Assembly (NCBI RefSeq): GCF_018336915.1
Contig: NZ_CP064923.1
Span: forward strand, 1,530,001 to 1,562,000
Length of the DNA: 32,000 nt
Source: Acaryochloris marina S15
GTDB lineage: Bacteria; Cyanobacteriota; Cyanobacteriia; Thermosynechococcales; Thermosynechococcaceae
Direction of reading: 5' to 3'
Shown here: positions 2,720 through 19,496 of the stretch, one piece after another
Position numbering within the stretch: position 1 is the first letter of the stretch
Layout of the letters: the number at the start of each line of letters is the position of its first letter
Program-made: the position numbers and the translations under genes
Notes under the pieces: generated by a model
What the model was told of the DNA's origin: nothing
Database searches by the model: none
Seen by the model: the letters and a program-made list of their open reading frames with translations, nothing else

Positions 2720-4141
2720 ATGGCAGAAGAAAGAACGTATTTAGAGCTGTCAGAAGAAGCAGGGATAGCCCACAAGTTTTATGAAGTGGTGGTGGATGGC
2801 ACTGAGCTAAAAATCCGGTATGGACGGATTGGCAATGCGGGCCAAACCCAGGAAAAGATTTTGGCCACCCCCGAAAAAGCAAAAGCCGAAGCCGATAAAA
2901 AAATTAAAGCAAAGCTGCGCAAAGGCTATGAACCCGCCGTCCAAGGCGTACGAAAGAAACGGGCCATTACCCGACGGGAAATTACCAGTACTCGCTCTTC
3001 GGCCAATCGTGCTCCGGTGTTGTGGAGGTTTGCCTCCGGTGCATCCGCCTTTGGCATCTTTATTGACGAATCCCGGTGCTGGGTGGGCAATCAAAAGGGC
3101 CAAATCTTTACCCTGACTCCTGAGGGCCAAGTCACCCAAGAGTTTAAACTCCCCGATGGCGTTAAATGTATTGTGGCCGATGATGATTGGCTCTATGCCG
3201 GTTGTGACGACGGCAAAGTCTACGACCTGAGCGGTAAAATCCCCCGAGTGGCCTATTCCATTGCCGACGATGTCGATATCTTTTGGCTAGATATCAACGA
3301 CGGTATTTTAGGGGTCTCGGATCGCCAGGGCGTCGTCACCACCATTAACCATGAAGAAGAATCTCAGTGGAATCAACGCAGTAGTGGTGATCATGGCTGG
3401 ATGGTCCGGTGCGATGAGATTGGCGTCTACCATGGCCATGCCGGTGGGGTGACCATGTATGACTGGGAAGATGGTCAGGTGATTTGGGACCAGCATACAG
3501 AGGGAGCAGTCTTGTTTGGTTGGCAGGAAGAGTCCACGGTCTATGCCGGTACCAGCCGAGGCCATATCTACTGTTTCACCAAACAAGGCCAGCGGGAACA
3601 GATCCTCAAGTGCGATACCCAAGTCTATTCCTGTGCAGCGGCGGAAGAAGGCAAATATGTCTTTGCGGGAGACAGCTCCTCTTCTATTTATTGTTTTAAT
3701 GCAGAAGGCAAACGCCTGTGGAAGTTGGGAACGGGCTGTGGTTCTGCCTTCTCCATGCAGTTTATTCAAGATCGTCTGTATATTGTGACGACGGATGGAT
3801 CGTTGGCCTGTATTGACGCTAGCGAAGCTGCCATTCAAGCTGCCCAAGCCGGTACAGTGCCGGATGTGGTGAATGTGAAAGCGCCGAAACTAGATGCGAT
3901 CGCAGCTTCGTCTACCTTAGAAACCACTACTAGTGCGGGGCAAGGTGTGATTCTAGTCTGTATAAAAGACAGCAGCAAACTGCGGGTCCGGGTCGAGTCT
4001 GCGGGCTATCACACGGACTGGAATGTCCAATTCCCCAAGGAAATGCGGGAAGCAGGGGCTCGGTATGTCGTAGAAGACCTACGGGAAGCCGCCCGAGGCG
4101 GATTTTACCGCGCCTACGGTGAAATCAAGAAGCTGGTTTAA
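2720..4141 (+). CDS. WGR domain protein fused to a PQQ/WD-like beta-propeller and a C-terminal ~70-aa domain
   Basis: The N-terminus KFYEVVVDGTELKIRYGRIGNAGQTQEK...KIKAKLRKGYEP is a classic WGR signature. It is followed by repeated beta-strand blades (LYAGCDDGKVYDL, VYAGTSRGHIYCF, VFAGDSSSSIYCF, LYIVTTDGSLACI). The gene starts 33 nt after the kinase stop. Confidence 0.8.
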   Translation: MAEERTYLELSEEAGIAHKFYEVVVDGTELKIRYGRIGNAGQTQEKILATPEKAKAEADKKIKAKLRKGYEPAVQGVRKKRAITRREITSTRSSANRAPVLWRFASGASAFGIFIDESRCWVGNQKGQIFTLTPEGQVTQEFKLPDGVKCIVADDDWLYAGCDDGKVYDLSGKIPRVAYSIADDVDIFWLDINDGILGVSDRQGVVTTINHEEESQWNQRSSGDHGWMVRCDEIGVYHGHAGGVTMYDWEDGQVIWDQHTEGAVLFGWQEESTVYAGTSRGHIYCFTKQGQREQILKCDTQVYSCAAAEEGKYVFAGDSSSSIYCFNAEGKRLWKLGTGCGSAFSMQFIQDRLYIVTTDGSLACIDASEAAIQAAQAGTVPDVVNVKAPKLDAIAASSTLETTTSAGQGVILVCIKDSSKLRVRVESAGYHTDWNVQFPKEMREAGARYVVEDLREAARGGFYRAYGEIKKLV

Positions 4142-5555
4142 AGACTGGAACGCGGGGTGGGTATTTGCGCTTAATTCGCTTGACTTGAGCCTGAAACTGG
4201 GCTCCGCGTTCAGGATTTACCATATCGACAAAATTGGCATAGCCTTGGATGACAGCAAAGGATACCGCCTGCCCCCCCCAATGCTGATCGTCATAGCCTG
4301 ACTGCTCAATTTGGTGAAGCAACGCTCGAAATCGCTTCAGGGTTTTACGGTCAACGTTCAGCTTTTCGTTGACAACCACCCCCGTCACCTCTTGCTGCCG
4401 ACCACTGCGGAGAACCCGCGTTTTCTGGGGATGAATCGTAAATCCTTCGTGGGTAACAATGGCATGGGTCCGCCGCAACAGTTTGCCCACCTGCTGCTGA
4501 GGCTGACCTGTCGTCGAGAAGGTTAGATCATCTGCATAGCGCGTATACAGATATCCCAACTCTGCTGCCATAGCAGTCAATCGACGATCCAGACGGCGAC
4601 AGAGCAGATTGGTGAGGATGGGGCTGGTGGGTGCCCCTTGAGGTAAGTGGCGCTGAGACTGGGCCACATAATAATTCTGGCCATCCAAGTCCACTTCCAC
4701 CACATCGGGTTCCGTACAGAGCAGAGCGAAAATAGTAGCGGCAGCTTCGCTATAGCCAAAGGAACGAAATAAACCTTTGATCCGAGGATAGGAAATAGAC
4801 GGGAAAAAATCTTGGAGATCGAGGTTAATCACCACATCGGCCCCCAAATGGGGCATCGCGTTGGTGACAATAGAGCGACCTGGGCAAAATCCATGGGCAG
4901 CCTCATGGAGGGGGATGGATGCTAACAGTTTTTCTGCGATCCAATATTGGGCCTGCTTCAGACGAGGCATGGGGGCTGAAATCAACCGTTCTCCCCCAGT
5001 TTTCTTCGGAATTTTGAAGCGAACATAGTGGGAGATTTGGGCGGTACGCCGAGAGAAAGCTAAGAAGCGCAACTGTCCAACGCTAATCTGCATGGCCTTG
5101 GCAATCTCTTCCGCAGTCCCATAGGCAGGGAGTCCATATTGCTGGAGTCGTGTCAGATCGCACTCGGTCCGATTAAGTCCCCCAGAAACCCCTGCTCCCA
5201 GATAGACAATATCGCGAGCTTTTCGGTCTCGCCATGCTGTCGCCCGAGCCTGTCGTTCTTGCTCTCGTCGCTCTTTGGTTTCTTGGCGCTTCTTCTTAGA
5301 AGCAGCGAGTCGCTCCCTGTAGAGCTGCTTTTTAATGGCGGCTTCGTTATGTAGTTTGCGGTTCTCGGCCCGCAACGCCGCTAGTTCCCGCTGTATTTCT
5401 CCTTTACGCCGAATCTCATTCGTCGGATCTTGGGGCATCTCGCCTTCGGCGGGCCAAAATCCTAACCGCACCATTTCTTCTAAGATGACCTCATCACGGG
5501 AGCTTTGGCGGATGCGATCGTAGAGTTCTTGGCGGGTACGAGGTTGATTGGACAT
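4125..5555 (-). CDS. Retron-type reverse transcriptase with ~125-aa charged N-terminal extension
   Basis: Block-by-block resemblance to retron Ec86 RT:
- YGLPAYGTAEEIAKAMQISVGQLRFLAF
- KKTGGERLISAP
- SIVTNAMPHLGADVVINLDLQDFFPSI (NAxxH plus motif A)
- LPQGAPTSPILTNL
- YTRYADDLTFS (YADD)
- RQQEVTGVVVNEKLNV (VTG). Confidence 0.9.
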   Translation of the reverse strand: MSNQPRTRQELYDRIRQSSRDEVILEEMVRLGFWPAEGEMPQDPTNEIRRKGEIQRELAALRAENRKLHNEAAIKKQLYRERLAASKKKRQETKERREQERQARATAWRDRKARDIVYLGAGVSGGLNRTECDLTRLQQYGLPAYGTAEEIAKAMQISVGQLRFLAFSRRTAQISHYVRFKIPKKTGGERLISAPMPRLKQAQYWIAEKLLASIPLHEAAHGFCPGRSIVTNAMPHLGADVVINLDLQDFFPSISYPRIKGLFRSFGYSEAAATIFALLCTEPDVVEVDLDGQNYYVAQSQRHLPQGAPTSPILTNLLCRRLDRRLTAMAAELGYLYTRYADDLTFSTTGQPQQQVGKLLRRTHAIVTHEGFTIHPQKTRVLRSGRQQEVTGVVVNEKLNVDRKTLKRFRALLHQIEQSGYDDQHWGGQAVSFAVIQGYANFVDMVNPERGAQFQAQVKRIKRKYPPRVPVFKPAS

Positions 5556-5608
5556 GGAGTCAGGAAGGTGAACTCGATGATATGAATAGCTGTCTATTTT
5601 GAAAAAAA

Positions 5609-5842
5609 TAAACCCGGTCAGTTAAGTGCCTCTTCGTAAACCTCTTAGGACTGGATTGCTCAACTCGAGCGGGGCCGCCCTACTGTGGCTCGTTAGTTTC
5701 ATGGAAACTAAACCGTAACAGCCACAGTAGGGCGAAGCCCCGCACAGTAAAGAGCAAGCCAGTGATGCGCGTTTAGACTAATCACATGAATGGCGATGCA
5801 CCATTCGGGTTGCAAGGGGTAAATCGTAACCGACTGGGTTTT
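5609..5842 (-). ncRNA. Candidate retron msr-msd non-coding RNA
   Basis: Non-coding, on the same strand as the RT and 54 nt upstream of it.
- Long-range inverted repeat 5610-5624 / 5827-5841: 15 positions, 13 Watson-Crick plus 1 wobble. This is a1/a2-like.
- Small hairpin GAATGG-n7-CCATTC at 5788-5806, msr-like.
- Long hairpin at 5669-5743, msd-like.
- TACTAT -10-like hexamer on the minus strand at 5843-5848.
- U7 tract directly after the a2-like arm (plus-strand A-run 5602-5608). Confidence 0.55.
5669..5743 (-). repeat. 75-nt imperfect hairpin (candidate msd stem)
   Basis: Three paired segments:
- GCGGGGC (5669-5675) pairs with GCCCCGC (5737-5743).
- CGCCCTACTGTGGCT (5676-5690) pairs perfectly with AGCCACAGTAGGGCG (5720-5734).
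- The apical TTAGTTTC (5693-5700) pairs with GAAACTAA (5704-5711).
This gives about 30 bp of stem. The structure is certain; the function is inferred. Confidence 0.85.
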
Positions 5843-6035
5843 ATAGTACTTTTGTACTGTTAGTGTATCATAACACTCTGTTCGTAGAATGCCCAATATT
5901 TAGGTCAGGCTTGCAGTTGAAGGGCTTTCTATCAATAGCGAAAAAGTTAGGTGAATATATTAACCCCATCCATCTGACGGTGTCAGTTTTGACGGAGTAT
6001 CCAGGTAAAGCCGATAGGGATATTCCCTCGATGAG

Positions 6036-6545
6036 CTAATTTCCTCTGGGACAGTATATTGACACGATCTGGCATCCTTCGACATGCGGATCAGTATTGC
6101 TTGTTCGCAATAACTCTTGCTGTATCTCCATAACTGTCTGGCAACTCAGGATTAGCGCATTAGGGGACAAGGAACGATTGATGCTGTCTACATCATTTCC
6201 CCAATTGGTCAGCAAGGATACGTCGTAATAACCATCAATTAAATCAAATCCCAAAAAACGTGGATCGCTCTCGTCATGCTCACTAAATTTTAACCCCACT
6301 AAATCGCCCTGACCTATCTGGTAATGCTTTTGGACGGCGTAGTCATAATCCGTTATCAAATGAACTCTGAAATTCTCATGGTCAATATGATTCCAGTCTT
6401 CACCCTCTAGATCACTCAAAAGACTGGGTCTGAGGATGCCATCTATAGAGCCAAATTCTGTGAAGGCTAACCCTCGCCACTGACAGTAGCTTGTCCAGCG
6501 ATCGCCATCACTGGGAGAAAAACTTTCGATAATGGTAAACAGCAT
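6036..6545 (-). CDS. Hypothetical acidic 169-aa protein, no recognisable domain
   Basis: Clean ORF with an ATG start, co-oriented with and directly upstream of the ncRNA/RT. It contains a HIP1 site (6498-6505). I could place no motifs. Confidence 0.55.
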   Translation of the reverse strand: MLFTIIESFSPSDGDRWTSYCQWRGLAFTEFGSIDGILRPSLLSDLEGEDWNHIDHENFRVHLITDYDYAVQKHYQIGQGDLVGLKFSEHDESDPRFLGFDLIDGYYDVSLLTNWGNDVDSINRSLSPNALILSCQTVMEIQQELLRTSNTDPHVEGCQIVSIYCPRGN

Positions 6546-6691
6546 GTTCTTAGACTCATGGCTCGATCAACATTGTTTTGGGCTGGGGTATTGATTGTTA
6601 AACATCTGTTGTGAAGGCTGCGTATAATACCAATTTGTGTTTTGGGATGTAATTTAGATAGGATCTAATCCTATGTTCATTCCATAAGTAT

Positions 6692-7210
6692 ATGAGTCGA
6701 GTTAGTACAGTTAAACCGCATCTAACAGTGGATGAGGTGAAAGACAAAATTGCTACGGCTCCGACTGCCCGCTGTCAGCAAAAATGGATGATTATTTATA
6801 ACGCCCTGGTAGATCCTCGCCCAGCTATCGAAATAGCCACGCATACTGCTACTAGTCTTCGAACGGTCCATCAGGTGATTTCCGCTTACAATCGCCTAGG
6901 AGCAGCAGCAATTGCTCCTAGGGCTAAACGGAAGAAGAATCCCGGTGCTTATCTGAGTATCGAAGAAGAGATTGAATTTTTAGAATCGTTTATTGAACGT
7001 GCTCAACAAGGTCATTTAACAACGGTTCAAGAGATCCAAACGGCCTTTGAGACTAAAGTGGAGACGTCAGTGGCACCCAGTACTATCTATCGTTTGCTAG
7101 ACCGACACGGATGGCGCAAACTCATGCCTCGTCCGTCCCATCCCAATGGAAACAAAGCGGCACGAGAGGCTTTTAAAAAAACTTTCGGGGGCTGGTCCAA
7201 ACCGCTGTAG
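6692..7210 (+). CDS. IS630 transposase OrfA (HTH / winged-helix N-terminal part)
   Basis: The 172-aa ORF ends ...REAFKKTFGGWSKPL*. Its N-terminal region is helix-turn-helix-like (IEIATHTATSLRTVHQVISAYN..., STIYRLLDRHGW). Confidence 0.8.
   Translation: MSRVSTVKPHLTVDEVKDKIATAPTARCQQKWMIIYNALVDPRPAIEIATHTATSLRTVHQVISAYNRLGAAAIAPRAKRKKNPGAYLSIEEEIEFLESFIERAQQGHLTTVQEIQTAFETKVETSVAPSTIYRLLDRHGWRKLMPRPSHPNGNKAAREAFKKTFGGWSKPL
7175..7181 (+). promoter_or_regulatory. A7 slippery run, putative programmed -1 frameshift / transcriptional slippage site
   Basis: In TTT AAA AAA ACT (OrfA frame), a -1 slip on the A-run gives ...EAFKK|NFRGLVQT..., fusing OrfA to OrfB. Confidence 0.6.
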
Positions 7211-7755
7211 CAGATCGCTCAGCTGAAGACCAACGTCCCATTGTGATCATGGCAGCAGACGAAGGGCGCTTTGGTCGTCTAGGGCAAGTAAGAAGAGCTT
7301 GGTGTGCTCCTGGAATTCGACCCGAAAGTGGGCAGCAGCTTGTCCGTGAATATCTCTATGGCTATGTTGCTGTTGCTCCTGCGTTAGGAAAGATGAGTGC
7401 TTTAGTCTTACCCTTTTCCAATACTCAGATGATGAACTTATTCCTAGCACAAGTGGCGGATGAATTTTCAGACTATTTTGTGGTGATGCAGGTCGATGGA
7501 GCGTCTTACCACACCGGAAAGAAGCTCGTCATTCCAGACAATATACGCTTGATTGTTCAGCCTCCTCGAAGTCCACAACTCAATGCTGTAGAGCATATCT
7601 GGGAGGAGGTGAAAGAAAAGCACTTCTACAATCAGGTTTTTGATTCTTTAGATGAGGTATCCGATACCTTGTGCAAGGGACTCAAAGAACTCATGGATTT
7701 ACCCGATAGGCTGACTTCTATGACCAATTTTCCTCATATGAGAATTACGATTTAA
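7177..7755 (+). CDS. IS630 transposase OrfB (DDE catalytic part), reached by -1 frameshift from OrfA
   Basis: The frame is open from 7177 (KNFRGLVQTAVADRSAEDQRPIVIMAADEGRFG...). DDE triad context: AADEGRFG, VVMQVDGASYH, PPRSPQLNAVEHIWEEVK. The tracked start (GTG 7243) is internal to this frame. Confidence 0.8.
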   Translation, partial: KNFRGLVQTAVADRSAEDQRPIVIMAADEGRFGRLGQVRRAWCAPGIRPESGQQLVREYLYGYVAVAPALGKMSALVLPFSNTQMMNLFLAQVADEFSDYFVVMQVDGASYHTGKKLVIPDNIRLIVQPPRSPQLNAVEHIWEEVKEKHFYNQVFDSLDEVSDTLCKGLKELMDLPDRLTSMTNFPHMRITI

Positions 7756-7781
7756 AACGCAAATTGGTATAAGAAGACTCG

Positions 7782-8330
7782 CTAAGATAAACCAGTTTGA
7801 ACAATGCGGGCAATATTTCGAGCATCATCAATACCCCGATGATGGACACCTTCAAGCTCCAGGCCTAGCCTAGTTAAAGCTCCAGCCATACCAAACTTCT
7901 TTATAGAGTTGATCTGGATAGAAAAGGCTTTCTTTAAATTGAGATGCCCTCCTGGAAAGGGATAGCCAACACCATGCAACTGGCAATCCTGCCTGAATTG
8001 ATGTCTGTCATAATCTCCCCAAGAGCAAAACAGATAACTGCCAAAGGGGTAAAACCAAGATTGGAAGTCTTTGAGTGCTATAGGAAAAAGTGGGGCCTTT
8101 TCAATATCTTGTTGAGCAATGGATGTTAGAGATTTACAGAACTCAGTCAGCACAGGATGAAGAATGGGCTTCACGAAGGTCTGATATTCACGCTCTATTT
8201 GAAGCGTTTGTGAGTTGAGAAGCACAGCTCCAATCTCAATCATCTCCATCCTTCGGCGAGGAATGGAATTATCATCTGCACAGGTGGCTTCAAGATCGAC
8301 AATCAAGTAATATTTCTGACTAATTTTCAT
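7782..8330 (-). CDS. DEDDh 3'-5' exonuclease (ERI-1/KapD-like)
   Basis: Motifs:
- YYLIVDLEATC (DxE)
- MIEIGAV
- CSWGDYDRHQF
- HHRGIDDARNIARI (H-x4-D)
The likely start is the MKISQKYY ATG at 8330. The tracked ORF extends to 8354. Confidence 0.8.
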   Translation of the reverse strand: MKISQKYYLIVDLEATCADDNSIPRRRMEMIEIGAVLLNSQTLQIEREYQTFVKPILHPVLTEFCKSLTSIAQQDIEKAPLFPIALKDFQSWFYPFGSYLFCSWGDYDRHQFRQDCQLHGVGYPFPGGHLNLKKAFSIQINSIKKFGMAGALTRLGLELEGVHHRGIDDARNIARIVQTGLS

Positions 8331-8383
8331 TGATGTTGTGGAGGGGGTACCCAAGGCCTCTACAGGAATATGACACTCGGTGT

Positions 8384-8468
8384 CTAGCCAAACATAAGTC
8401 TTTTTGTGGCTTCTAGATATTTCCCTGTCAAAGCAGAGGCAGTTTCTTCGCGCATCATACCAATAGCC
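8384..8468 (-). repeat. Copy A of an 85-bp duplicated gene tail
   Basis: About 67/85 identical to 12670-12754 by hand count (51/58 in the core 8411-8468 versus 12697-12754). Same orientation, and both copies end on a stop codon. Confidence 0.8.
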
Positions 8469-8536
8469 CTAAGGCTTTCGTCATGCCTCCGTTGAATCAG
8501 CTCTGGCAAGAATTGGGCCTCTGTCCCTGCGTCCAT
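8384..8536 (-). CDS. Small 50-aa ORF, possibly the 3' part of a frameshifted ~88-aa gene (alternative ATG at 8649 in another frame)
   Basis: Below the track's size threshold. Translation: MDAGTEAQFLPELIQRRHDESLRAIGMMREETASALTGKYLEATKRLMFG*. Its C-terminal 28 codons are conserved at the protein level in a second copy at 12670-12754. The frame is open upstream only to 8584. Confidence 0.3.
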   Translation of the reverse strand: MDAGTEAQFLPELIQRRHDESLRAIGMMREETASALTGKYLEATKRLMFG

Positions 8537-8702
8537 TAGATGTTCTAAAGAATACCCTGAGGGACCCGTTTGTTGGAGATAGAGCTAGACCCACTTTTTC
8601 TAAAACAATCGGGACAAGCACTTCAGGTATAACACTGTCAGAATTCATAGCGTAAAAAATAATGGCTATATCTAAGGAATGAGGTGAGCCAGAAGAGATC
8701 TA

Positions 8703-10439
8703 CTACCAGCTCTCACCAGCTCCACCGCCACCACTACTACCTCCGCCAAAGTCACTCCCTCCACTGCTGCCACCATAGTCACCACCGCTATAGCTACTGC
8801 CACTGTCATAACTGCTGCTATAGCTTGATGAACTAGAACTGGAATATGAAGTTTTTGAGACTCGCGGGATCGTCACTCGTTCTTCCGTTTTCTGATGACA
8901 GCAAGCACATTCCCGAGTCAAGAGTTCTTCCCCATTAGAAGTGGTTGTCGCTTTCTCCAAGATTTCTGATGTGCTCGTCACCGTAAAAGCATTACAGTCA
9001 TCACAATGCGAGAATTTATAAGGATTCAGAACTTCTTGAAAAAGATGGAGATCAAATCCCATATCTGCTTGGGCAGAACTACAGGTTGGACATTGCCAAC
9101 CTTCAAACTGAGTACTGCCTATTTCTTTGGCAACTTTCTCTGCAGGTTTAAGGTATTCATCTAAGGTTTGATCCCCTAAATACTGCATCAGGCCATTACA
9201 AGATTGACATCGTACATCGATGTTGCAGGAAGGCGATCGCAACAACCGTAGCGTCCCTGCAGAGGCACCCCCCACCGCAGCAAACAAAGCAACAAAAACA
9301 TTTATGCTTCTGATACTGCTGGCCACAATCAGTACAACAGGAACGGCTACAAGGCCAAAAATCAACAGCTTGCTCAAGGTTGTTATGACTGCACTAGCGC
9401 CATTTTCATCACGCTTATTACAGCACCAAATTTCAAACCCAAACCAACCCCAGATCAGTAGTAATTTCAAGGCACTATAGCCTTCAATAATCGAAGATGC
9501 TAGCCAAAGACCGATTGCCAGCCCCAAGAAAGTGCACCAGCTTTGAAACACTTCTGTCGTCGGGTTAAATACGAGTCTGGTTTTAAGAGGCCGTCGTGGT
9601 CCATCATGACTCGTCACATCTCCTGCCAACCACCGTAATACCCAAACCCACAAACCCATCAAATTCAGTGATGTGTCTCTCTTCTCTTCATAAGTCGTGC
9701 GGCCTACTGGAGCGAACTTAAAGGAATGGCTCTTTCTAACGACTTTTACCAGCACAAACGATGTAGCCGTCACCACCCCTGTTGCAATAAAACCAACGAT
9801 TCCCTTAATAATGAGGTCGAAATTTTCAAAGATCCAAATGAGCCAGCCTAAATCAACAGACTCTCCTGACTCTTCACGGGTCGGCGGGGCAATGGTTCCA
9901 CCTTCTAAAACCTGGATGATTGCCTGAGTTCCTTTGACGATACCTGTATCAAAATTGCCTTGCTTAAAGTAAGGAGTAACCTGGGTGCGAAGAATATTGC
10001 CCACTTTCGCATCGGGGAGAATAGACTCTACGCCATATCCAGTCTCAATTTCTGTCCGGCGTTCGTTCTTCGAGACTAGAAATAAAATGCCATTGTCTTC
10101 CCCTTTTTTACCAATGCCCCAGGTATTAAATAGTTCAGTCGTAAACGCTTTGGGGGTTGCAGATGGTTGGGTATCGGGTACAGTTACCACTGCAATTTCG
10201 GCACCATTCCTTGCTTCCAACGCTGTAATCATCTGATTTAGCTGTGCTTCGCTGTCGGGACTGAGCACATCGGCCATATCCATCACCCAGTTATTGTCCT
10301 GGCGAGGGTTAGGAACTTCAGAGACTGGAATGGCCTGACTCGGCATCAGTGAGGATAGGGATAGAAGCAGGCTAAACCCCAGGGCAAAGAGGAAGGTCAG
10401 CGAGGTGCGCTCTCGCTGTCTAAGTCTGTTGGCAAACAT
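8703..10439 (-). CDS. TPM (YgcG-like) domain membrane protein with polytopic TM region, 4xCxxC zinc-ribbon-like module and Gly/Ser-rich tail
   Basis: Domains in order:
- Signal-like N-terminus.
- TPM block VMDMADVLSPDSEAQLNQMITALEARNGAEIAVVTVPD...GILFLVSKNERRTEIETGYG.
- About 5-6 hydrophobic segments.
- Cys pairs CQSC..CPTC..CDDC..CACC (aa 411-514).
- YgcG-type tail ...GGSSGGGGAGESW. Confidence 0.8.
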   Translation of the reverse strand: MFANRLRQRERTSLTFLFALGFSLLLSLSSLMPSQAIPVSEVPNPRQDNNWVMDMADVLSPDSEAQLNQMITALEARNGAEIAVVTVPDTQPSATPKAFTTELFNTWGIGKKGEDNGILFLVSKNERRTEIETGYGVESILPDAKVGNILRTQVTPYFKQGNFDTGIVKGTQAIIQVLEGGTIAPPTREESGESVDLGWLIWIFENFDLIIKGIVGFIATGVVTATSFVLVKVVRKSHSFKFAPVGRTTYEEKRDTSLNLMGLWVWVLRWLAGDVTSHDGPRRPLKTRLVFNPTTEVFQSWCTFLGLAIGLWLASSIIEGYSALKLLLIWGWFGFEIWCCNKRDENGASAVITTLSKLLIFGLVAVPVVLIVASSIRSINVFVALFAAVGGASAGTLRLLRSPSCNIDVRCQSCNGLMQYLGDQTLDEYLKPAEKVAKEIGSTQFEGWQCPTCSSAQADMGFDLHLFQEVLNPYKFSHCDDCNAFTVTSTSEILEKATTTSNGEELLTRECACCHQKTEERVTIPRVSKTSYSSSSSSSYSSSYDSGSSYSGGDYGGSSGGSDFGGGSSGGGGAGESW

Positions 10440-10744
10440 ATGTTGAATTAGCCTGTATTAAGGCTCTTAAGCAGCTATTTCTGGATATCTTTAGCATGCC
10501 CAGGATGGCCCCTATCCTGCTGAATCGTGGTTCAGGCAAGGGTCATCCGTGATACCGATCGCCCCATAAATACCAGAATTTAGCACTCTATCAGATTAGA
10601 ATCATCACCCCAAAATATGATGTAGAGCATTTGCAAATTAGACATCAGTTTTCTTGAAATAATCGGCCCCTCTCTCTGGAGGAATGATTAGATTGGAGTG
10701 CAACTCACCAGAAGACGTTGCAATAGATCTTGGAGGCCAGGAAG

Positions 10745-12376
10745 CTACGGTTTTATGAGTCGGTGTAAGTAGCAGGGTATGCTTACATAAACTTCAGAAG
10801 ACTGGTCACAATAAACGCATCGACCGACGATCAGCTTTTCGCCATCTACAAACCATTGTGCAGGTTGAACCACCCGAGCTTTACGATTTCGAACCGTATA
10901 GGCATCACACTCACTGCAATATCCAAACTTATCGGATTTCACAACTTCACGAAATAGATGAATACTGACATCGGTTTCTGTATGAGCAGGGCGACAAGTT
11001 GGACATTCCCAACCCACATGGCAGGTACTTTTAAGGGTTTTTGCTGCTTTTTCAGCTGGTTTTAAATAGCTCTCTATAGTTTTAGGTTCCAGGCATTGCA
11101 TCAGGCCATTACAGGATTGACAGTGTACTTCGGTGTAACGGGTGAGGGATCGCATCAGCAGTAACGTTCCCGCCCAAGCACCACCGAAAGCAGTGATGAG
11201 GTAAGGGGTTAATGCGGTCCTATAAATAAAAATATTCAGGATGCTAGCCAATATCAAGACTAAAATAATGGCGACTACATTACTGCGAAAAAGTCCACGA
11301 AATAGCGATATGGTTTCGCTGCCACCGTGATCGTCATGTTTAGCCCACCACCACAGTTCATACCCCAACCAAATGACCAGAAAACCCATGACCAATCCAT
11401 GGACATGGCGTACTGCCGTCTGATGGGAGAACACCACCCCTACAGATGAATAGGAGCCAAAGAAAATCCACCAGCTTTGAATGATTGGGCGAGTAAAATG
11501 AATTCCTTTATAGATAGGGAGAGTTTCTTCTCCCCCGACCGCTACCTTGCCTGTCCGCAACCAATGCAGTAGGGACGTCCGTATCCACCATAATCGACTG
11601 CCCTGGTTGGACAAGGTTGTACACCCCACTGGAGCAACCCGAAGCACTTGGCTTTTACGAACAATACTCATCAGCACAACCGCTGGAATCAGAACCAATG
11701 CCGCGAAGGTGAGACTCCACAAAACCAAGGTAGAGATAAAGAAACCGAGAGCCACGACAAACATCATCAGGATGACACCAATGATCGGAACATCGGCTGG
11801 CAGCGAGTAGATCTCTGATGGGTCCTCCTGTTCAAGCACCTCGATTACTGCTTGAGCACCATTAACGATACCTGCCTCAAAGGATCCTTGTTCCAAAGCA
11901 GGATAGATTTGGGTGGTCAGAATTTTATCGATTGTCCTCAGGGAAAGATCTAGGGTTTTTACATCCTTTCCTGTTTTAATGGCTGCATGGGGTTCCTCTT
12001 CAGAGACCAACAACAATATACAATCACTCTTCGCTTGCTCATCTATTTCCCAATGATTCAGCAGTTCATCAGCGAACTCGCTGGATGAAGCTAACGGCTT
12101 TATATCCGGCACCGTTACCACTATCAATTCGGTTCCACGCTTAGCGACTAACCCATCGATCATCTGCTTCAGTTGTTGCTCACTATCCCATCGGAGGATA
12201 TTCGCCTGATCCATGACCCAATTATTATCTTGACGCGGATCAGACACGTCAGATACTGGAATGGCTCGGCTCGGGGAGAGGGAGCCGAGGAATAGCCACA
12301 AGCTTATCCCTACAGCTAAAACAACTGTCCATAAGGGACGATAGTGATGTCCTTGTCTTTTTAAATTCACAATCAC
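10745..12376 (-). CDS. Paralogous TPM domain membrane protein with 4xCxxC module (no Gly/Ser tail)
   Basis: Same architecture as 8703-10439: VMDQANILRWDSEQQLKQMIDGLVAKRGTELIVVTVPD, TM segments, CQSC..CPTC..CSEC..CVYC. GTG start. Confidence 0.8.
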   Translation of the reverse strand: MIVNLKRQGHHYRPLWTVVLAVGISLWLFLGSLSPSRAIPVSDVSDPRQDNNWVMDQANILRWDSEQQLKQMIDGLVAKRGTELIVVTVPDIKPLASSSEFADELLNHWEIDEQAKSDCILLLVSEEEPHAAIKTGKDVKTLDLSLRTIDKILTTQIYPALEQGSFEAGIVNGAQAVIEVLEQEDPSEIYSLPADVPIIGVILMMFVVALGFFISTLVLWSLTFAALVLIPAVVLMSIVRKSQVLRVAPVGCTTLSNQGSRLWWIRTSLLHWLRTGKVAVGGEETLPIYKGIHFTRPIIQSWWIFFGSYSSVGVVFSHQTAVRHVHGLVMGFLVIWLGYELWWWAKHDDHGGSETISLFRGLFRSNVVAIILVLILASILNIFIYRTALTPYLITAFGGAWAGTLLLMRSLTRYTEVHCQSCNGLMQCLEPKTIESYLKPAEKAAKTLKSTCHVGWECPTCRPAHTETDVSIHLFREVVKSDKFGYCSECDAYTVRNRKARVVQPAQWFVDGEKLIVGRCVYCDQSSEVYVSIPCYLHRLIKP

Positions 12377-12669
12377 TAGAGATTTAAGTTACCCAGGAAT
12401 GGCGAGAGAAGTATTTATCGAACAACTCAAGGGATATCCATCAACTTTCCCAAATTCAATGAACGATTCGGCAAAAATAAGGAAGAAAGTTGAAAATTAC
12501 CCACGGACTTTCCCTGGCAATTTGGATGTTAAATTGGCGAACCTACCGATATGGTGAAATCCCCCTCACCAGCTTGAACCATGTCGCAAAGTCGGTTAGC
12601 CACCGTCACCAAACTAGCCCCGTATCATGGCTTTCCATCCCCTCTAGGAACATGACCAAAACAGCACCG

Positions 12670-12754
12670 TTAAGTAAAAATCAGACTTTCTGCCGTTTCT
12701 AGATATTTTTCAGTCAAAGCAGACGCAGTTGCTTGGCGCATCATACCAATAGCG
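12670..12754 (-). repeat. Copy B of the 85-bp duplicated gene tail (truncated small-gene remnant)
   Basis: Encodes ...AIGMMRQATASALTEKYLETAESLIFT*, compared with copy A ...AIGMMREETASALTGKYLEATKRLMFG*. Homology stops exactly at the SWIM gene stop codon (12755-12757). Confidence 0.8.
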
Positions 12755-14398
12755 CTACGAAACTGCCCGACTATGCTGCATCCGTAGAGCCAGAATATGC
12801 TCGCAGGGGCCTTTGAAGAGCTTATTTTGCTGATGCCAATTGCAAGTACATTCGCCGTGAACCATTCGCTCATCCCGATCAATGGCCACAATCGGCTGCA
12901 ATGTCTTATCCCCATGCTGAACCGTGCCTTGTAACAGCAGGGTACCCTTCCCATCCACCGAAGACTGACTAACCCGCACCGCATTTTGATCCAAGAATCG
13001 CGTGGCTTGGGCTTCCCGTTCATTGCTAAAGCGCAGCTTATCCATGGGGAGCGGATCGCGGGAGAGTTCTCGCACTCGGTAGACCTGCTTGTTGAGATCA
13101 TAAATGGCTCGTCCTGCTTGGGTATAGGCACTCAGTGCCCCTAACACCACGGACTGATCCAGCCCTAAACGCCTAGCCAGATCAGCCGGCGACTCCACCC
13201 AATTCTGTTTCAAGGCTTCAAATACCTGGCGCTTTGTCCAATCATCCACCTGGGCACGGGGGGCCATTAGGTCAAAATTTCCTGCTCGTGACCAATCATT
13301 GGCGGTCCATCCCGATAGACCTAACGTAAAGGACATATCGTTGAGGTCTGCCACGTAGAACGAGGGCAGTCCTGTACCCAACAAATGCACCGTAAACTTA
13401 CGGGCGACTGGAATCAGACGTTCTAAAATCATTAATCGTCGTCGTCCCCAAACTCGTACCATTTCTGGTTTATGCCCCTGATAAATAGAGCGGGCACAAA
13501 CAATTTCTTGGTCCCAGGGTTCTAGAACCATCCGAATCGGTTCTCCAGGAGTGAGGTGATAGCGGAGGCTGCGAGGGCCATGCTTTTCCCGGCGTCGGCG
13601 GAGGGCAAAGCAGAGGTTGTAAATATCCATCGGATGCAGGTCGAATTGGATGGCTGGCAGGGCCATGGCCGAACTGACTTGTAAAAAGCCTCGCACCCAA
13701 GTGTCGGGCAAATCAATTTTGACTTCTTTGTAGGCAGCCGTTCCCGTCGTTTCCACCTCAAAGCCAGAGGGATCGACTTCTAAAAGGGTTTGCCGGTAGC
13801 TGCGAATTTTTTGAAATTCGTCGTACAGGGTTGCTGAGTAGTCGACATTGGTGGTGCCACAGGCAAAGTCATTGACCTGATCAAAAACGTTATAGCTGGC
13901 ACCCAAGCGGCCATAACTGGACTCATCCTGGCTAAAACACTCAAAGAAAACCTCATCCGGATGAACCGTAATCACTGGGTCGAGGACAAACCAGGCATCA
14001 TAATCTTTGCGATAGAGATAGTTAAAATACTGTTGTCTAGCCTGATAAAACGGAGCTAACCGATTTGAACTACGGCGATGCAGGTCTGTGAGTTCAGCTT
14101 GAAAGGCTTCGAGTTTTTCGGTGACCTCTTGACGTTGAGCAGCCACCCGTTGCCAATCAATATCATCCCGCTGAGCCGCCCAGGCTTTATAAGCCGTTTT
14201 ATCTTGAGGCTGAAATCGCAAGTCAGAAACCACTACATCATGGAGGGCGCTGATGGCTTCGCGAAAAGCAATATTTTGCTGCAACTGTCCTCGAAAATAG
14301 GTCGGTTCGCGGGTCAAGTCTGGGGAGAAGGACATTTGGGCTTGGTCGCCTTGTCCCGATACCTGGCTATTCCGTTTGTAGTTGTAGTTAAACTCCAT
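12755..14398 (-). CDS. SWIM zinc-finger family protein (YehQ-like)
   Basis: C-terminal CxCx(n)CxH motif: CTCNWHQQNKLFKGPCEHILAL. The likely start is the MEFNYNYK ATG at 14398, 29 nt after the upstream stop. The tracked start at 14554 would overlap the upstream gene by 127 nt. Confidence 0.8.
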   Translation of the reverse strand: MEFNYNYKRNSQVSGQGDQAQMSFSPDLTREPTYFRGQLQQNIAFREAISALHDVVVSDLRFQPQDKTAYKAWAAQRDDIDWQRVAAQRQEVTEKLEAFQAELTDLHRRSSNRLAPFYQARQQYFNYLYRKDYDAWFVLDPVITVHPDEVFFECFSQDESSYGRLGASYNVFDQVNDFACGTTNVDYSATLYDEFQKIRSYRQTLLEVDPSGFEVETTGTAAYKEVKIDLPDTWVRGFLQVSSAMALPAIQFDLHPMDIYNLCFALRRRREKHGPRSLRYHLTPGEPIRMVLEPWDQEIVCARSIYQGHKPEMVRVWGRRRLMILERLIPVARKFTVHLLGTGLPSFYVADLNDMSFTLGLSGWTANDWSRAGNFDLMAPRAQVDDWTKRQVFEALKQNWVESPADLARRLGLDQSVVLGALSAYTQAGRAIYDLNKQVYRVRELSRDPLPMDKLRFSNEREAQATRFLDQNAVRVSQSSVDGKGTLLLQGTVQHGDKTLQPIVAIDRDERMVHGECTCNWHQQNKLFKGPCEHILALRMQHSRAVS

Positions 14399-14427
14399 GC
14401 AAACTCTCTCGACTTCAGGATTGACGG

Positions 14428-17400: not shown

Positions 17401-17673
17401 GGAAGCCGTCGTTTCAGGTGGATTAGCTTCTCCCGTACTAACCCGATAGCCTTTCCGCAGCTTGGCATTGATCAGCCGGTCAAAAATACGCTGGGCCATT
17501 TCTAAAGGCACTGCAGAAACCGTTTCTGAACCTTCCTTTAAAGCAGTGCCTTGGCGACCATAGCGAAAATTGACCACATAAGCGCCCTCACTCACCTGGC
17601 ACAGATCCACCTCATACACTTTTTCAGTGCGACCCGCTTGATAAACCAGGGTGGTTCGCTGAATCAGTTGCAT
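14428..17673 (-). CDS. 1081-aa WGR domain protein with HEAT/ARM-like helical repeats (MolR-like)
   Basis: The N-terminal KVYEVDLCQVSEGAYVVNFRYGRQGTALKEG...LINAKLRKGYRV is WGR. HEAT_PBS-like repeats follow (VIWRAGELKIQAAAPLLLQL...CIAWALGQCGD). The remainder is alpha-helical. Confidence 0.75.
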   Translation of the reverse strand: MQLIQRTTLVYQAGRTEKVYEVDLCQVSEGAYVVNFRYGRQGTALKEGSETVSAVPLEMAQRIFDRLINAKLRKGYRVSTGEANPPETTASPTPAPVETPIDPNVRSQAILNRLAAALQSPAATRPVAKEWPLNRVIWRAGELKIQAAAPLLLQLWGQEDLRNYCIAWALGQCGDQSTYTALEQRYRQPGAEFVQRITLEALFKLGTAAQRDALRQELMVQLPPDLRTLTRQGPASALTQTLKSTLDPNASPQTLAVLDLLYQIDSEVTRPAVLEVIQTAPLRPSYFQRLRHIFKMAEYRQDTEVFGLLAYRFEQEKALYRNQGYGVRLPDGEYLYAGYTYNSRTGRYERTTDNPITTEQRRPDTRLAFSDKTRDYLRRRVWRTLRKLGQAGDSSYVTFAVDLLLQYADEDAGSVRESVFYHWDWRNSYSRVETGRVNWDLFAGYLAFNHVLYEQSPRYVLKPANKAWRCQSSYKPGDPAPPEREEAFPHLWDQQPVALLRLLSESGCQPVHEFAVKAIRASRSFLESLPLESVILLLERPYEITAQLGFEIAQARYDASQPNRELMVAIATCNYAPARQQAQAWITAQRDVFLNDSQLIAQLVTCKPADMRAFTRRLLSKALLEDTRARAILGQVIAILLNQEPENIPSEDWITDISETLFLSFGAQLRTLGLEVVLDILRYPAAEMQTFGARILLNHSTPVTELPPGLIDALIDSPFDSVRVVGVRLLSQLPDTVLMEQTGLLLTLIAHPLAEMRLAIRPAIQRIAAAQLSFSQHLAQPLLEVLQGPEETEGIHRFLTELLRQALPGWMDNITPEQVHKLLESDSPAAQEIAGYVLQHHCDPWSATLPTADIAQFTHHDMLSVRTAGWQMLEAILPRLRQSESDLLDIVRVLESTWEDTRQFGFKLFRDDLKPDELTPAVVISICDSNLPQVRQLGRDLVSRCFRDADGEGYLLKFSEHPATDMQLFATQYLQTYVVDNPQRLQELTPYFTRVLAQVNRGRVTKQRVYAFLEAEATKSLTAAEIIAEILTRQSVTIAICDRARALEILLKIHSAYPQISVPLQVKPVAVREPAALSSSI

Positions 17674-17694
17674 GCAAATATTCCTATCGATTCA

Positions 17695-17730
17695 ATCAAC
17701 AAGGGGAGAGGAAGCAAAAGGCTTGTTGAT
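17695..17730 (-). promoter_or_regulatory. 9-bp perfect stem / 18-nt loop hairpin in the 5' leader of the WGR-HEAT gene
   Basis: ATCAACAAG (17695-17703) pairs with CTTGTTGAT (17722-17730). It lies 22 nt upstream of the ATG at 17673. No U-tract follows it. Confidence 0.3.
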
Positions 17731-17875
17731 AGTATTTATGTACTAATTCTATGTCACCTTTATCCCAACAGCAAGTCCATCCTTCCAGGACATAGCCCGT
17801 CAGGGGCCAGATGCAGAAATCATCCCCCTAGGTTTCCCACCGTCACGCTCTAGTCTTGCTTTTTAACCGATCAAT

Positions 17876-19198: not shown

Positions 19199-19496
19199 AA
19201 TGCCAACCTTCTGGCTCATATTCCCGTTGAATACGAACCTGCCAAGTTCCCTGAGGAATGGCGAGGGCATTGTGTTCTTCGTGGATTAGGGTGGCTTCGG
19301 GAGAAAGAACCCGTAAGTAAAGGGTGCCGTCCTTTTCGTACAGCTCGGCTTGTCCTTCACTAATACGATGGCTATGCCCCGTCACTTCACCTTCCGCCAA
19401 CGTTAAATGAGAAAGTTGACGACCTAAGCTGGGCGTCGTTTTGGACAAAGGTCTGAGGATTACATCACCTTGACGAATGGGTTGCATCTTTGTCAT
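19185..19496 (-). CDS. Small beta-rich protein of a phage-associated family (QGDV...GE-TGH-H...HEEH...QREY motif pattern)
   Basis: Sequence: MTKMQPIRQGDVILRPL...LAEGEVTGHSHRI...LIHEEHNALAIPQGTWQVRIQREYEP. A GGAGGAG lies 11 nt upstream of the ATG at 19496. The tracked start at 19526 adds 10 aa. Confidence 0.6.
   Translation of the reverse strand: MTKMQPIRQGDVILRPLSKTTPSLGRQLSHLTLAEGEVTGHSHRISEGQAELYEKDGTLYLRVLSPEATLIHEEHNALAIPQGTWQVRIQREYEPEGWHYVAD

What the first reader, a model, noticed from the sequence alone, without database searches (positions are those of the whole stretch)
4125..6545. Retron-like module (Ec86-like RT plus upstream structured RNA) with no recognisable effector in the canonical position
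Seen in the sequence:
- The 476-aa minus-strand ORF matches retron Ec86 RT in every diagnostic block (NAMPH = NAxxH, LDLQDFFPSI, QGAPTSP, YADD, VTG).
- About 54 nt upstream on the same strand lies a ~230-nt non-coding stretch with retron-like architecture.

Established knowledge: retrons are tripartite anti-phage units (RT, msr-msd, effector), and the effector is normally an adjacent co-oriented gene.

Here the position downstream of the RT is taken by a convergent gene that overlaps the RT stop. The only adjacent co-oriented ORF is an acidic 169-aa protein (6036-6545) with no motif I can place.

Inference: this is either a retron type with a new effector (ORF169, the RT N-terminal extension, or a displaced neighbour) or an orphaned retron.
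Basis: partly seen in the sequence, partly recalled or inferred. Interest (0 to 1): 0.82.

Follow-up and report, generated by a model that had tools for sequence, protein, structure and literature searches.

The report
Split type XIII (Mx162-like) retron
This is a complete retron of the already described type XIII (Mx162 family) in a cyanobacterium; its known partner genes are all in the window but pushed about 7 kb away by inserted genes, so it is neither a retron without an effector nor one with a new effector.

Summary
ORF 4125-5555(-) is a retron reverse transcriptase, and 5602-5842(-) is a retron msr-msd RNA gene. The interpretation, "no recognisable effector, so a new effector or an orphan", does not hold.

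- **Type.** The RT scores 657 bits (E 3.8e-198) on PADLOC RT_XIII. That is the Mx162/Mx65 clade, not the Ec86 type.
- **Partners present.** Both type XIII partner genes are co-oriented upstream in the window: SWIM/DEDE protein 12755-14398 (2e-243) and WGR-HEAT/ARM protein 14428-17673 (1157 bits).
- **Convergent gene.** The gene overlapping the RT stop (WGR + beta-propeller, 2720-4141) is itself linked to these retrons in two other phyla.
- **How the split arose.** Three close relatives show stepwise insertions between SWIM and the ncRNA: a DEDDh exonuclease + ORF169 cassette, then two TPM genes, then an IS630 element.
- **ORF169.** It is a real, constrained gene family of unknown fold. It is absent from 85 other type XIII loci and occurs elsewhere without retrons.
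- **State of the system.** All components are under purifying selection, and the ncRNA is almost invariant between strains.

Verdict: new member of a known kind. The side leads are the WGR-propeller gene and nuclease genes that recur inside cyanobacterial loci.

The parts
4125..5555 (-). Retron reverse transcriptase, type XIII (clade 10, Mx162-like), 476 aa, with the clade's roughly 140-aa N-terminal extension
   Evidence: PADLOC RT_XIII 3.8e-198, 657 bits, residues 2-466. RVT_1. Catalytic YADD and other motifs invariant. 5948 homologues at E<=1e-30, cyanobacterial ones 64-71% identical. dN/dS 0.05-0.08 against close strains.
5602..5842 (-). msr-msd non-coding RNA gene. Sub-features: a1 5827-5840; a2 5611-5624; msr hairpin 5785-5808; long msd hairpin 5650-5764; conserved 3' box GTCCTAAGAGGTTTACGAAG 5632-5651; U-run 5601-5612; candidate priming G at 5830 (inferred from alignment with the CAG motif of myxobacterial homologues)
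   Evidence: nhmmer 193 bits, E 1e-57, and the only copy in the window even at E<=100. z = -7.3. Covariation: 27 compensatory pairs, 0/500 shuffles. a1/a2 duplex present with different sequences in all 15 homologues. No Rfam family matches.
5843..5901 (-). Conserved block upstream of the ncRNA holding a promoter-like element (TGGGCA-17-TATGAT, 5895-5867); likely the ncRNA's own promoter (inferred)
   Evidence: Consensus scan. Sharp conservation boundary at about 5901: 5556-5901 differs at only 2 positions from L089, while RT dS is 0.22 and the sequence just upstream is strongly diverged.
2720..4141 (+). WGR domain + beta-propeller + small C-terminal beta domain protein (473 aa), convergent with the RT and overlapping its stop by 17 nt; a conserved retron-linked gene
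   Evidence: Pfam WGR 2.9e-16 plus propeller families. AF2 pLDDT 89 with propeller matches. First gene of the operon in 7 myxobacterial loci and a Competibacteraceae locus. Convergent downstream of the RT in Aphanothece, Coleofasciculus and Synechocystis PCC 7509. dN/dS 0.11-0.15.
12755..14398 (-). Type XIII primary partner: DEDE-motif / winged-helix / SWIM zinc-finger protein (547 aa from M53 of the listed ORF)
   Evidence: PADLOC SWIM_XIII 2e-243. CxCx12CxH at residues 517-534 and a Dx7Dx4Ex30-32Dx37E-compatible stretch from D140. 60-72% identical to the genes directly upstream of the ncRNA/RT in other loci. dN/dS 0.04.
14428..17673 (-). Type XIII accessory partner: WGR + HEAT/ARM repeat protein (1081 aa)
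   Evidence: PADLOC WGR_XIII E = 0, 1157 bits, full length. Pfam WGR and HEAT_2. Immediately upstream of SWIM in about 45 loci. dN/dS 0.08-0.11.
6036..6545 (-). ORF169: real gene of an uncharacterised family; lineage-specific passenger, or at most a lineage-specific accessory, not a general retron partner
   Evidence: 217 representative clusters at E<=1e-3. 21 invariant residues in 31 sequences. AF2 pLDDT 85 with no PDB or BFVD match. dN/dS 0.13-0.21. No hit in 80 type XIII loci or in five further related loci. Found without retron genes in 13 other loci.
7782..8354 (-). DEDDh (RNase T / KapD-like) 3'-5' exonuclease, paired with ORF169 between SWIM and the ncRNA in this lineage
   Evidence: Pfam RNase_T 9e-17. 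NCBIfam KapD 1.7e-26, below cut-off. Same position in L088, L089 and L090. dN/dS 0.07-0.10.
6627..7770 (+). IS630-family insertion sequence (HTH ORF 6692-7210, DDE_3 ORF 7243-7755) separating DEDDh from ORF169; specific to this strain
   Evidence: Pfam HTH_33 and DDE_3. 37-nt terminal inverted repeats, 73% complementary. Absent from the relative L088, whose ORF169 is 97% identical and where DEDDh and ORF169 are 91 nt apart.
8390..12757 (-). Inserted pair of paralogous TPM-domain membrane proteins (8703-10439, 10745-12376), bracketed by an 82-nt direct repeat (8390-8471, 12676-12757)
   Evidence: Pfam TPM_phosphatase. Repeat is 83% identical. Single copy of the repeat and no TPM genes in L090; a different 158-aa ORF at this place in L089.

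Best explanation
The window holds one complete type XIII retron (the Mx162/Mx65/Ne144/Sa163 family) of a cyanobacterium, spread over about 15 kb (2720-17673).

**Shown**
- The canonical order in 80 other loci is [WGR-propeller]-WGR-HEAT/ARM-SWIM-ncRNA-RT.
- In this lineage a DEDDh exonuclease + ORF169 cassette sits between SWIM and the ncRNA.
- In this strain two TPM genes and an IS630 element were added at the same place.
- The WGR-propeller gene lies convergent to the RT.
- Every retron gene is intact and under purifying selection, and the ncRNA is nearly invariant between strains.

**Inferred, by homology with Mx162 and characterised retrons**
- The ncRNA is transcribed from its own promoter, roughly 5860 to 5602, about 255 nt. 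The Mx162 transcript is 241 nt.
- Its a1/a2 ends pair. The RT primes from the 2'-OH of a conserved G (candidate G5830) and copies the msd hairpin into an msDNA of roughly 150-165 nt.
- The RT-msDNA complex is then bound in trans by the WGR proteins, since WGR domains bind nucleic acids, and by the SWIM/DEDE protein, the predicted nuclease.
- Together they form a sensor-effector complex whose disturbance, for example by phage, releases the effector.

No partner needs to be adjacent, because all parts act through diffusible products.
For: **Classification**
- RT_XIII 657 bits against 345 for the next model.
- SWIM_XIII 2e-243 and WGR_XIII 1157 bits in the window.
- SWIM and DEDE motifs are present.
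- The definition of type XIII comes from Mestre 2020 (PMC7736814).

**Synteny in other loci**
- SWIM lies beside the RT in about 60 of 80 loci and WGR-HEAT in about 45.
- Where found, the ncRNA homologue (about 40 loci) usually starts a few tens of nt after the SWIM stop.

**ncRNA structure**
- Covariation supports the consensus fold.
- a1/a2 pairing is present in all 15 homologues tested.

**Insertion history**
- L090, L089 and L088 show the order of events.
- Other cyanobacteria also have split loci: insertions of 1-5 kb between ncRNA and RT in L001, L002, L006, L041, L047 and L083, and an RT with no SWIM or ncRNA nearby in PCC 7509, L024 and L040.

**Selection**
- dN/dS is 0.04-0.15 for the four retron genes.
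- 5556-5901 is almost identical between strains whose RT dS is 0.22.

**Literature**
- Mx162 transcript and msDNA sizes, the priming-G motif, and the grouping of cyanobacterial RTs with Mx162 are in Simon 2019 (PMC6868368).
Against: - No experiment here shows msDNA production or any phenotype.
- In the literature I could search, type XIII has no demonstrated anti-phage activity. No type XIII partner protein has a solved structure. The effector logic is therefore analogy only.
- The IS630 element lies between the upstream operon and ORF169-ncRNA-RT. It could reduce expression if the ncRNA depends on read-through.
- The a1/a2 duplex is the weakest of the 15 compared (-19 kcal/mol).
- The strong vertical conservation in cyanobacteria fits a housekeeping role as well as it fits defence.
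Confidence: 0.88

Rival explanations
1. In this lineage the DEDDh exonuclease and/or ORF169 have been recruited as extra retron components. They might trim the msDNA or ncRNA, or modulate the effector. This makes it a five- or six-gene variant of type XIII.
For: - The cassette keeps the same place and orientation between SWIM and the ncRNA in four strains whose synonymous divergence reaches 0.87.
- Both genes are under purifying selection.
- The DEDDh catalytic motifs are intact.
- Nuclease genes recur inside cyanobacterial type XIII loci: RNase III lies directly upstream of the RT in L006, L041, L008 and L024.
- msDNAs are known to be matured by host nucleases (Simon 2019).
Against: - Neither gene is found in 85 other type XIII loci, apart from one DEDDh gene on the opposite strand about 4 kb from the RT in L042.
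- ORF169 homologues in 13 loci outside this lineage have no retron gene and no DEDDh neighbour.
- The SWIM-ncRNA-RT junctions are insertion-prone and carry unrelated cargo elsewhere: TPM genes, an IS, a hemolysin-type gene, a hydrolase and others.
- In L089 the cassette is more diverged than its flanks (DEDDh 90% and ORF169 86% identity, against 97-99% for neighbours), which fits exchangeable cargo.
Confidence: 0.15
2. The system is a type XIII retron by descent but is not an anti-phage module. In cyanobacteria it is a vertically inherited, domesticated RT-msDNA system with a cellular role such as DNA-damage or nucleic-acid sensing. That would explain why its genes can drift apart.
For: - RT, SWIM and WGR-propeller are 64-73% identical across cyanobacterial orders.
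- Loci are often split, with housekeeping genes between or beside the parts.
- Mestre 2020 reports a correlation with 16S for type XIII and suggests domestication.
- Myxobacterial retrons are vertically inherited (Simon 2019).
- No phage-defence result for type XIII was found.
Against: - In this lineage the locus sits next to NACHT/STAND and DUF6745 genes, and a PD-T4-6-like kinase lies in the window. That is a defence-island-like setting.
- Every retron type characterised so far acts in defence (abstracts listed).
- 59-66% identity between cyanobacterial and myxobacterial proteins could also reflect horizontal transfer.
Confidence: 0.3
3. One reading: an orphaned RT + ncRNA that has lost its effector, or one that uses ORF169 or the RT N-terminal extension as a new effector.
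For: - No effector-like gene directly flanks the RT on the same strand.
- ORF169 is the only adjacent co-oriented gene and has no known domain.
Against: - The canonical partners are present, intact and constrained 7.2 kb upstream.
- Relatives L089 and L090 show them much closer to ORF169 and, in L089, to the RT.
- The N-terminal extension is a clade-wide feature.
- ORF169 is not retron-linked elsewhere.
- The ncRNA and RT show no decay.
Confidence: 0.03

Closest known systems
Type XIII retrons: Retron-Mxa1 (Mx162), Mxa2 (Mx65), Sau1 (Sa163), Nex2 (Ne144); Mestre et al. 2020, clade 10
   Same: - RT clade, including the N-terminal extension.
- ncRNA collinear with myxobacterial homologues: about 230 nt from a1 to a2, a long msd hairpin and conserved boxes.
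- SWIM/DEDE partner and WGR-HEAT/ARM partner.
- Vertical-looking conservation.
   Different: - The gene order is interrupted: 7.2 kb of unrelated genes (DEDDh, ORF169, IS630, two TPM genes) lie between SWIM and the ncRNA.
- The WGR-propeller gene is convergent downstream of the RT instead of first in the operon.
- The host is a cyanobacterium. Cyanobacterial RTs were already known to group with this clade (Simon 2019).
Retron-Eco1 (Ec86), type II-A
   Same: - Same RT fold family; it is the best solved-structure match (1.7e-44).
- Same diagnostic motifs (NAxxH, YADD, VTG).
- Same msr-msd principle with a1/a2 repeats.
   Different: - RT_II-A scores 247 bits against 657 for RT_XIII.
- Ec86 RT has no N-terminal extension.
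- Its msd is much shorter (86 nt).
- Its effector is a nucleoside deoxyribosyltransferase-like protein, which is absent here.
Other cyanobacterial type XIII loci (e.g. Aphanothece L083, Coleofasciculus L084, Synechocystis PCC 7509 L085, Scytonema L007)
   Same: - Same four genes at 64-72% identity.
- WGR-propeller convergent downstream of the RT.
- Frequent insertions within the locus.
   Different: - In those loci the insertions lie between ncRNA and RT, so the ncRNA stays with SWIM. Here the break is between SWIM and the ncRNA.
- Several have a VWA protein directly after the RT, which this window lacks.
- None has DEDDh or ORF169.

Membership tests
Type XIII retron (Mestre 2020) | RT belongs to retron clade 10 / matches the RT_XIII profile better than other retron types | tested here: met
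   PADLOC RT_XIII 657 bits, E 3.8e-198, residues 2-466. The next models score 345 bits (RT_other) and 325 bits (outgroup); RT_II-A scores 247.
Type XIII retron (Mestre 2020) | Type XIII-specific msr-msd ncRNA next to the RT, with a1/a2 terminal repeats | tested here: met
   nhmmer 193 bits against a profile of ncRNAs from 15 loci, myxobacterial ones included. Covariation. a1/a2 duplex.
Type XIII retron (Mestre 2020) | Associated cluster-114 protein: DEDE motif, winged helix, C-terminal SWIM CxCx12CxH | tested here: met
   SWIM_XIII 2e-243. CTCx12CEH at 517-534 and a DEDE-compatible spacing from D140. The gene is 7.2 kb from the ncRNA rather than adjacent.
Type XIII retron (Mestre 2020) | Accessory cluster-216 protein: WGR-like domain + HEAT/ARM repeats, preceding the SWIM gene | tested here: met
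   WGR_XIII 1157 bits, full length. WGR and HEAT_2 in Pfam. Its stop is 30 nt before the SWIM start.
Type XIII retron (Mestre 2020) | Components contiguous in one operon (the assumption behind automated callers) | tested here: not met
   Six ORFs (two TPM genes, DEDDh, two IS630 ORFs, ORF169) separate SWIM from ncRNA-RT. Relatives show these are secondary insertions. This is an operational feature, not a biological defining one.
Type XIII retron (Mestre 2020) | Production of branched msDNA by the RT from the ncRNA | not testable with these tools
   Needs expression and analysis of small nucleic acids.
Anti-phage retron (tripartite toxin-antitoxin-like defence) | Effector toxicity held in check by RT-msDNA; protection against phage | not testable with these tools
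   No experimental report for type XIII was found in the searchable literature.
   RT_II-A scores 247 bits against 657 for RT_XIII. No NDT-like gene appears among the window proteins scanned.

The most novel reading that the evidence does not exclude
The WGR + beta-propeller protein (2720-4141) is an unrecognised fourth core component of the Mx162-like branch of type XIII retrons. It is kept next to the system in three phyla and acts through a small C-terminal domain that it shares with VWA proteins found directly after the RT in other cyanobacteria. In addition, cyanobacterial lineages have repeatedly recruited nucleases into the locus as msDNA or ncRNA processing helpers: the DEDDh exonuclease, perhaps with ORF169, in this lineage, and RNase III in others.
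Probability: 0.4. Interest if true: 0.55.

Novelty: new member of a known kind. Interest (0 to 1): 0.33.

Why it matters
- **Classification.** A 'retron without effector' is reclassified as a known type, which removes a false lead.
- **Detection.** Callers that rely on gene adjacency, and readers who look only at neighbours, can miss type XIII systems, because in cyanobacteria their parts are often separated by inserted genes.
- **Mechanism.** That these split loci stay under purifying selection argues that the parts work in trans. Type XIII is one of the retron types with no known mechanism, no solved partner structure and no proven phenotype.
- **Leads.** The comparative findings are cheap starting points for the first mechanistic study of this type: a fourth conserved WGR-propeller gene, a shared C-terminal domain, nuclease genes inside the loci, and tandem ncRNA copies.

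Tried and rejected
- **Rfam, on 4000-18000 at E<=1 and on the whole window at gathering score.** No retron family matched, only a chance miRNA-like hit on the msd hairpin.
- **A second ncRNA copy or a remnant next to SWIM.** None was found even with nhmmer --max at E<=100. No SWIM 3'-end remnant lies upstream of the ncRNA.
- **ORF169 function.** Pfam, NCBIfam, PADLOC and PHROGs gave nothing. The PDB sequence profile gave nothing. A confident AF2 model had no PDB or BFVD fold match.
- **ORF169 gene neighbourhoods.** Twelve metagenomic loci and one Prosthecobacter locus were uninformative, with no retron and no DEDDh.
- **Source genome.** The exact RT and WGR-propeller proteins occur only on a 4.4-kb Logan contig. 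The organism is therefore known only as a cyanobacterium: HIP1 occurs 12 times against 0.4 expected, and the best named relatives are cyanobacterial.
- **Pfam on the shared C-terminal domain and on the 25-aa ORF.** Nothing.
- **Promoter and terminator scan.** Counts were not above shuffled expectation. The promoter call rests on conservation, not on the scan.
- **Priming G.** It could not be fixed with certainty; G5830 is an alignment-based guess.

Full report
**1.

These residues are invariant in an alignment of 24 homologues.

It matches Pfam RVT_1. Among solved structures it is closest to the Ec86 RT (1.7e-44), so the 'Ec86-like' resemblance is genuine.

Upstream on the same strand lies a structured RNA gene.
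- A 14-nt a1 arm (5827-5840) pairs with an a2 arm (5611-5624).
- Between them are an msr hairpin (5785-5808) and a roughly 115-nt msd hairpin (5650-5764).
- A U-run follows (5601-5612).
- The a1-a2 span is 230 nt and ends 55 nt before the RT start.
- The fold has z = -7.3 against dinucleotide shuffles.

The convergent gene 2720-4141 overlaps the RT stop by 17 nt. ORF169 (6036-6545) has no match in Pfam, NCBIfam, PADLOC or PHROGs.

**2. The retron is type XIII, and its partners are in the window**

Against PADLOC the RT scores 657 bits (E 3.8e-198) on RT_XIII over residues 2-466. The next model scores 345 bits and RT_II-A, the Ec86 type, 247 bits.

Mestre et al. 2020 (PMC7736814) define type XIII as RT clade 10 (Mx162, Mx65, Ne144, Sa163) with its own ncRNA type. 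It has a primary partner carrying a DEDE motif, a winged helix and a C-terminal SWIM finger. It also has an accessory WGR + HEAT/ARM protein that co-evolves with the RT.

I scanned the other large ORFs of the window and found both, co-oriented with the RT.
- 12755-14554(-) matches SWIM_XIII at 2e-243. The real start is probably M53, at 14398.
- 14428-17673(-) matches WGR_XIII at 1157 bits over its whole length.
- The SWIM protein has CTCx12CEH at residues 517-534 and a stretch compatible with Dx7Dx4Ex30-32Dx37E from D140.

**3. Comparison with 80 homologous loci**

A scan of one genome per GTDB species returned 80 RT loci with up to 10 kb on each side. A tblastn search with the window's proteins gave the following.
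- The canonical co-oriented order is WGR-HEAT/ARM, SWIM, ncRNA, RT.
- SWIM is present in about 60 loci and WGR-HEAT in about 45.
- In three Bacteroidota-type loci the order is RT, WGR-HEAT, SWIM.
- ORF169, the two TPM proteins, DUF6745 and NACHT have no hit in any locus. The DEDDh exonuclease hits one, on the opposite strand about 4 kb from the RT.

A profile built from 15 ncRNAs finds a homologous RNA in about 40 loci. These span Cyanobacteria, Acidobacteriota, Myxococcota, Bacteroidota, Verrucomicrobiota and Proteobacteria, and the RNA usually starts a few tens of nt after the SWIM stop. The window has exactly one copy, 5602-5842, at 193 bits.

The consensus structure is well supported.
- 92% of cells are paired, against 34-44% when partners are slid.
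- 27 of 50 pairs show compensatory changes, against 8-13 when slid.
- 0 of 500 shuffles reach the observed values.
- The a1/a2 duplex exists in all 15 RNAs with different sequences.

The RNA is collinear with the myxobacterial (Mx162-clade) copies. The Mx162 transcript is 241 nt and gives a 162-nt msDNA primed from a G in a CAGC motif (Simon 2019, PMC6868368). By alignment, the candidate priming G here is G5830 and the msDNA would be about 150-165 nt. Both are inferences.

**4. How the locus became split**

Close relatives recovered through ORF169 homologues show the order of events.
- **L090** (ORF169 81% identical): NACHT, small ORF, DUF6745, WGR-HEAT, SWIM, DEDDh, ORF169, then the contig ends.
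- **L089** (86%): the same, with a 158-aa ORF after SWIM, and then ncRNA, RT and the convergent WGR-propeller.
- **L088** (97%): two TPM genes after SWIM, and no IS.
- **The window**: as L088, plus an IS630 element (6627-7770, 37-nt inverted repeats) between DEDDh and ORF169.

The TPM pair is bracketed by an 82-nt direct repeat (12676-12757 and 8390-8471, 83% identical). That repeat is single-copy in L090.

So the DEDDh-ORF169 cassette is an old insertion between SWIM and the ncRNA in this lineage. The TPM pair and the IS are later additions.

Split loci are common in cyanobacteria.
- 1-5 kb of unrelated genes lie between ncRNA and RT in L001, L002, L006, L041, L047 and L083.
- The RT has no SWIM or ncRNA nearby in Synechocystis PCC 7509, L024 and L040.

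**5. The parts are functional**

Between the window and L088-L090, dN/dS values are as follows.

| Gene | dN/dS |
|---|---|
| RT | 0.05-0.08 |
| SWIM | 0.04 |
| WGR-HEAT | 0.08-0.11 |
| WGR-propeller | 0.11-0.15 |
| DEDDh | 0.07-0.10 |
| ORF169 | 0.13-0.21 |

The segment 5556-5901 covers the ncRNA, 60 nt upstream of it and the spacer to the RT. It differs from L089 at only two positions, although the RT has dS = 0.22. Conservation stops abruptly at about 5901.

The conserved upstream block contains a promoter-like TGGGCA-17-TATGAT (5895-5867). This suggests the ncRNA has its own promoter, which would make the IS insertion upstream harmless. That step is inferred.

**6. The convergent gene is not a bystander**

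The 473-aa product of 2720-4141 has three parts: a WGR domain, a 7- to 8-bladed beta-propeller and a small C-terminal beta domain.

Homologues 61-66% identical are the first gene of the operon, directly upstream of WGR-HEAT. This holds in all seven myxobacterial loci with a closely related RT and enough upstream sequence, and in a Competibacteraceae locus.

In Aphanothece, Coleofasciculus and Synechocystis PCC 7509 the gene lies convergent, 2.5-5.5 kb downstream of the RT. That is the same geometry as in the window.

Of the six contexts of this protein that I examined, counting the window and the Competibacteraceae locus, five have a type XIII RT within about 5.5 kb; the sixth is an actinobacterial locus with none. 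At least three further homologue pairs appear to share a contig, judged by matching contig lengths and organism names in the hit lists.

Mestre 2020 does not mention a propeller protein. This is the most interesting lead, but the link is not universal: three acidobacterial loci and several cyanobacterial loci lack the gene within 10 kb.

**7. ORF169**

It is a real family.
- 217 representative clusters at E<=1e-3.
- 21 invariant residues in 31 sequences.
- A confident AF2 model (pLDDT 85) with no PDB or viral fold match and no PDB sequence match.

Outside this lineage it occurs without retron genes or a DEDDh neighbour: in 12 metagenomic loci and in a Prosthecobacter genome among housekeeping genes.

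It may be lineage-specific cargo or a lineage-specific accessory. It is not the missing effector.

**8. Mechanism and what is known**

- No paper in the searchable library reports a phenotype or mechanism for type XIII.
- No solved structure matches its SWIM or WGR-HEAT proteins.
- The mechanism I give therefore rests on homology with Mx162 for the msDNA step and on analogy with other retrons for the rest. In it, RT-msDNA is made from the ncRNA, and the complex is bound in trans by the two WGR proteins and the SWIM/DEDE predicted nuclease.
- A domesticated, non-defence role is a serious alternative. The vertical-looking conservation supports it. The neighbouring NACHT and DUF6745 genes and a PD-T4-6-like kinase in the window give a defence-island flavour.

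**9. Verdict**

It is a retron with displaced partners. It is not Ec86-type, not effector-less, and does not use ORF169 as effector.
- It is a new member of a known kind. Cyanobacterial RTs were already known to group with Mx162.
- Interest is modest. It rests on the split, trans-acting architecture and on the WGR-propeller and nuclease leads in a retron type that is still mechanistically unknown.

Noticed in passing
L003 1006-1253 and 1300-1541; L015 9350-9537 and 9697-9894; L020 7368-8030 (three copies); L033 2260-3061 (three copies); L047 4734-5008 and 9557-9807: Several type XIII loci carry two or three copies of the msr-msd RNA gene between SWIM and the RT. In L047 one copy is next to SWIM and one next to the RT. 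In L003 the copies differ in the variable part of the msd stem.
   Followed up: partly
L006 9250-9963; L041 9289-9966; L008 129-794; L024 8784-9464: An RNase III gene lies upstream of the type XIII RT and co-oriented with it in four cyanobacterial species. It directly abuts the RT in L006 and L041 and lies 0.5-1.4 kb away in L024 and L008. L006 and L024 also have a NYN-like gene. With the DEDDh exonuclease in the window's lineage, nuclease genes recur inside these loci. This could be old synteny or could be functional.
   Followed up: partly
window 3930-4138 (C-terminal about 65 aa of the WGR-propeller protein); L083 13063-14901; L084 14672-16513; L085 12152-13972; L009 1719-1916: A small domain unknown to Pfam (consensus GVxxxCxxxxxKLRxRVxSxGYxxDxNxxFPxxxRxxGxxYxV...GxFYRxxGxIxxL) ends the WGR-propeller protein. 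It occurs twice at the C-terminus of 606-613-aa VWA proteins that sit directly after the RT in three other cyanobacteria. A short stretch encoding it follows the RT in L009.
   Followed up: partly
window 12676-12757 and 8390-8471: An 82-nt direct repeat (83% identical) brackets the TPM gene pair. Each copy holds a 25-codon ORF in the same frame and of the same length (MMRQATASALTEKYLETAESLIFT and MMREETASALTGKYLEATKRLMFG). L090 has one copy between SWIM and DEDDh. It may be a small gene or leader, or a recombination footprint.
   Followed up: partly
window 17876-19270 and 19693-21993: A DUF6745 protein and a NACHT/STAND NTPase lie directly upstream of WGR-HEAT on the same strand. They are conserved there in L089 and L090 but absent from the 80 other type XIII loci. 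This may be a separate defence-type module next to the retron.
   Followed up: partly
window 30152-31747 (-): A 531-aa protein matches the PADLOC PD-T4-6 serine/threonine kinase models (7.8e-118). It is another defence-associated gene in the window.
   Followed up: no
window 25001-26000: G+C falls to 0.32 between the FHA-PAS histidine kinase gene (ends 25239) and the arginyl-tRNA synthetase gene (26164-27978). No ORF of 100 aa or more, no tRNA and no Rfam match lies there.
   Followed up: no
window 8703-10439 and 10745-12376: Two paralogous (38% identical) TPM-domain proteins have long membrane and cysteine-rich C-terminal parts and an S/G-rich tail. They are inserted as a pair inside the retron locus in the window and in L088 only.
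   Followed up: no
L087 4310-5734 (Longispora urticae): A WGR-propeller homologue 66% identical to the cyanobacterial one sits in an actinobacterium next to a WYL-domain regulator, with no retron gene in the 16-kb contig. Such high identity across phyla without the retron is unexplained.
   Followed up: no
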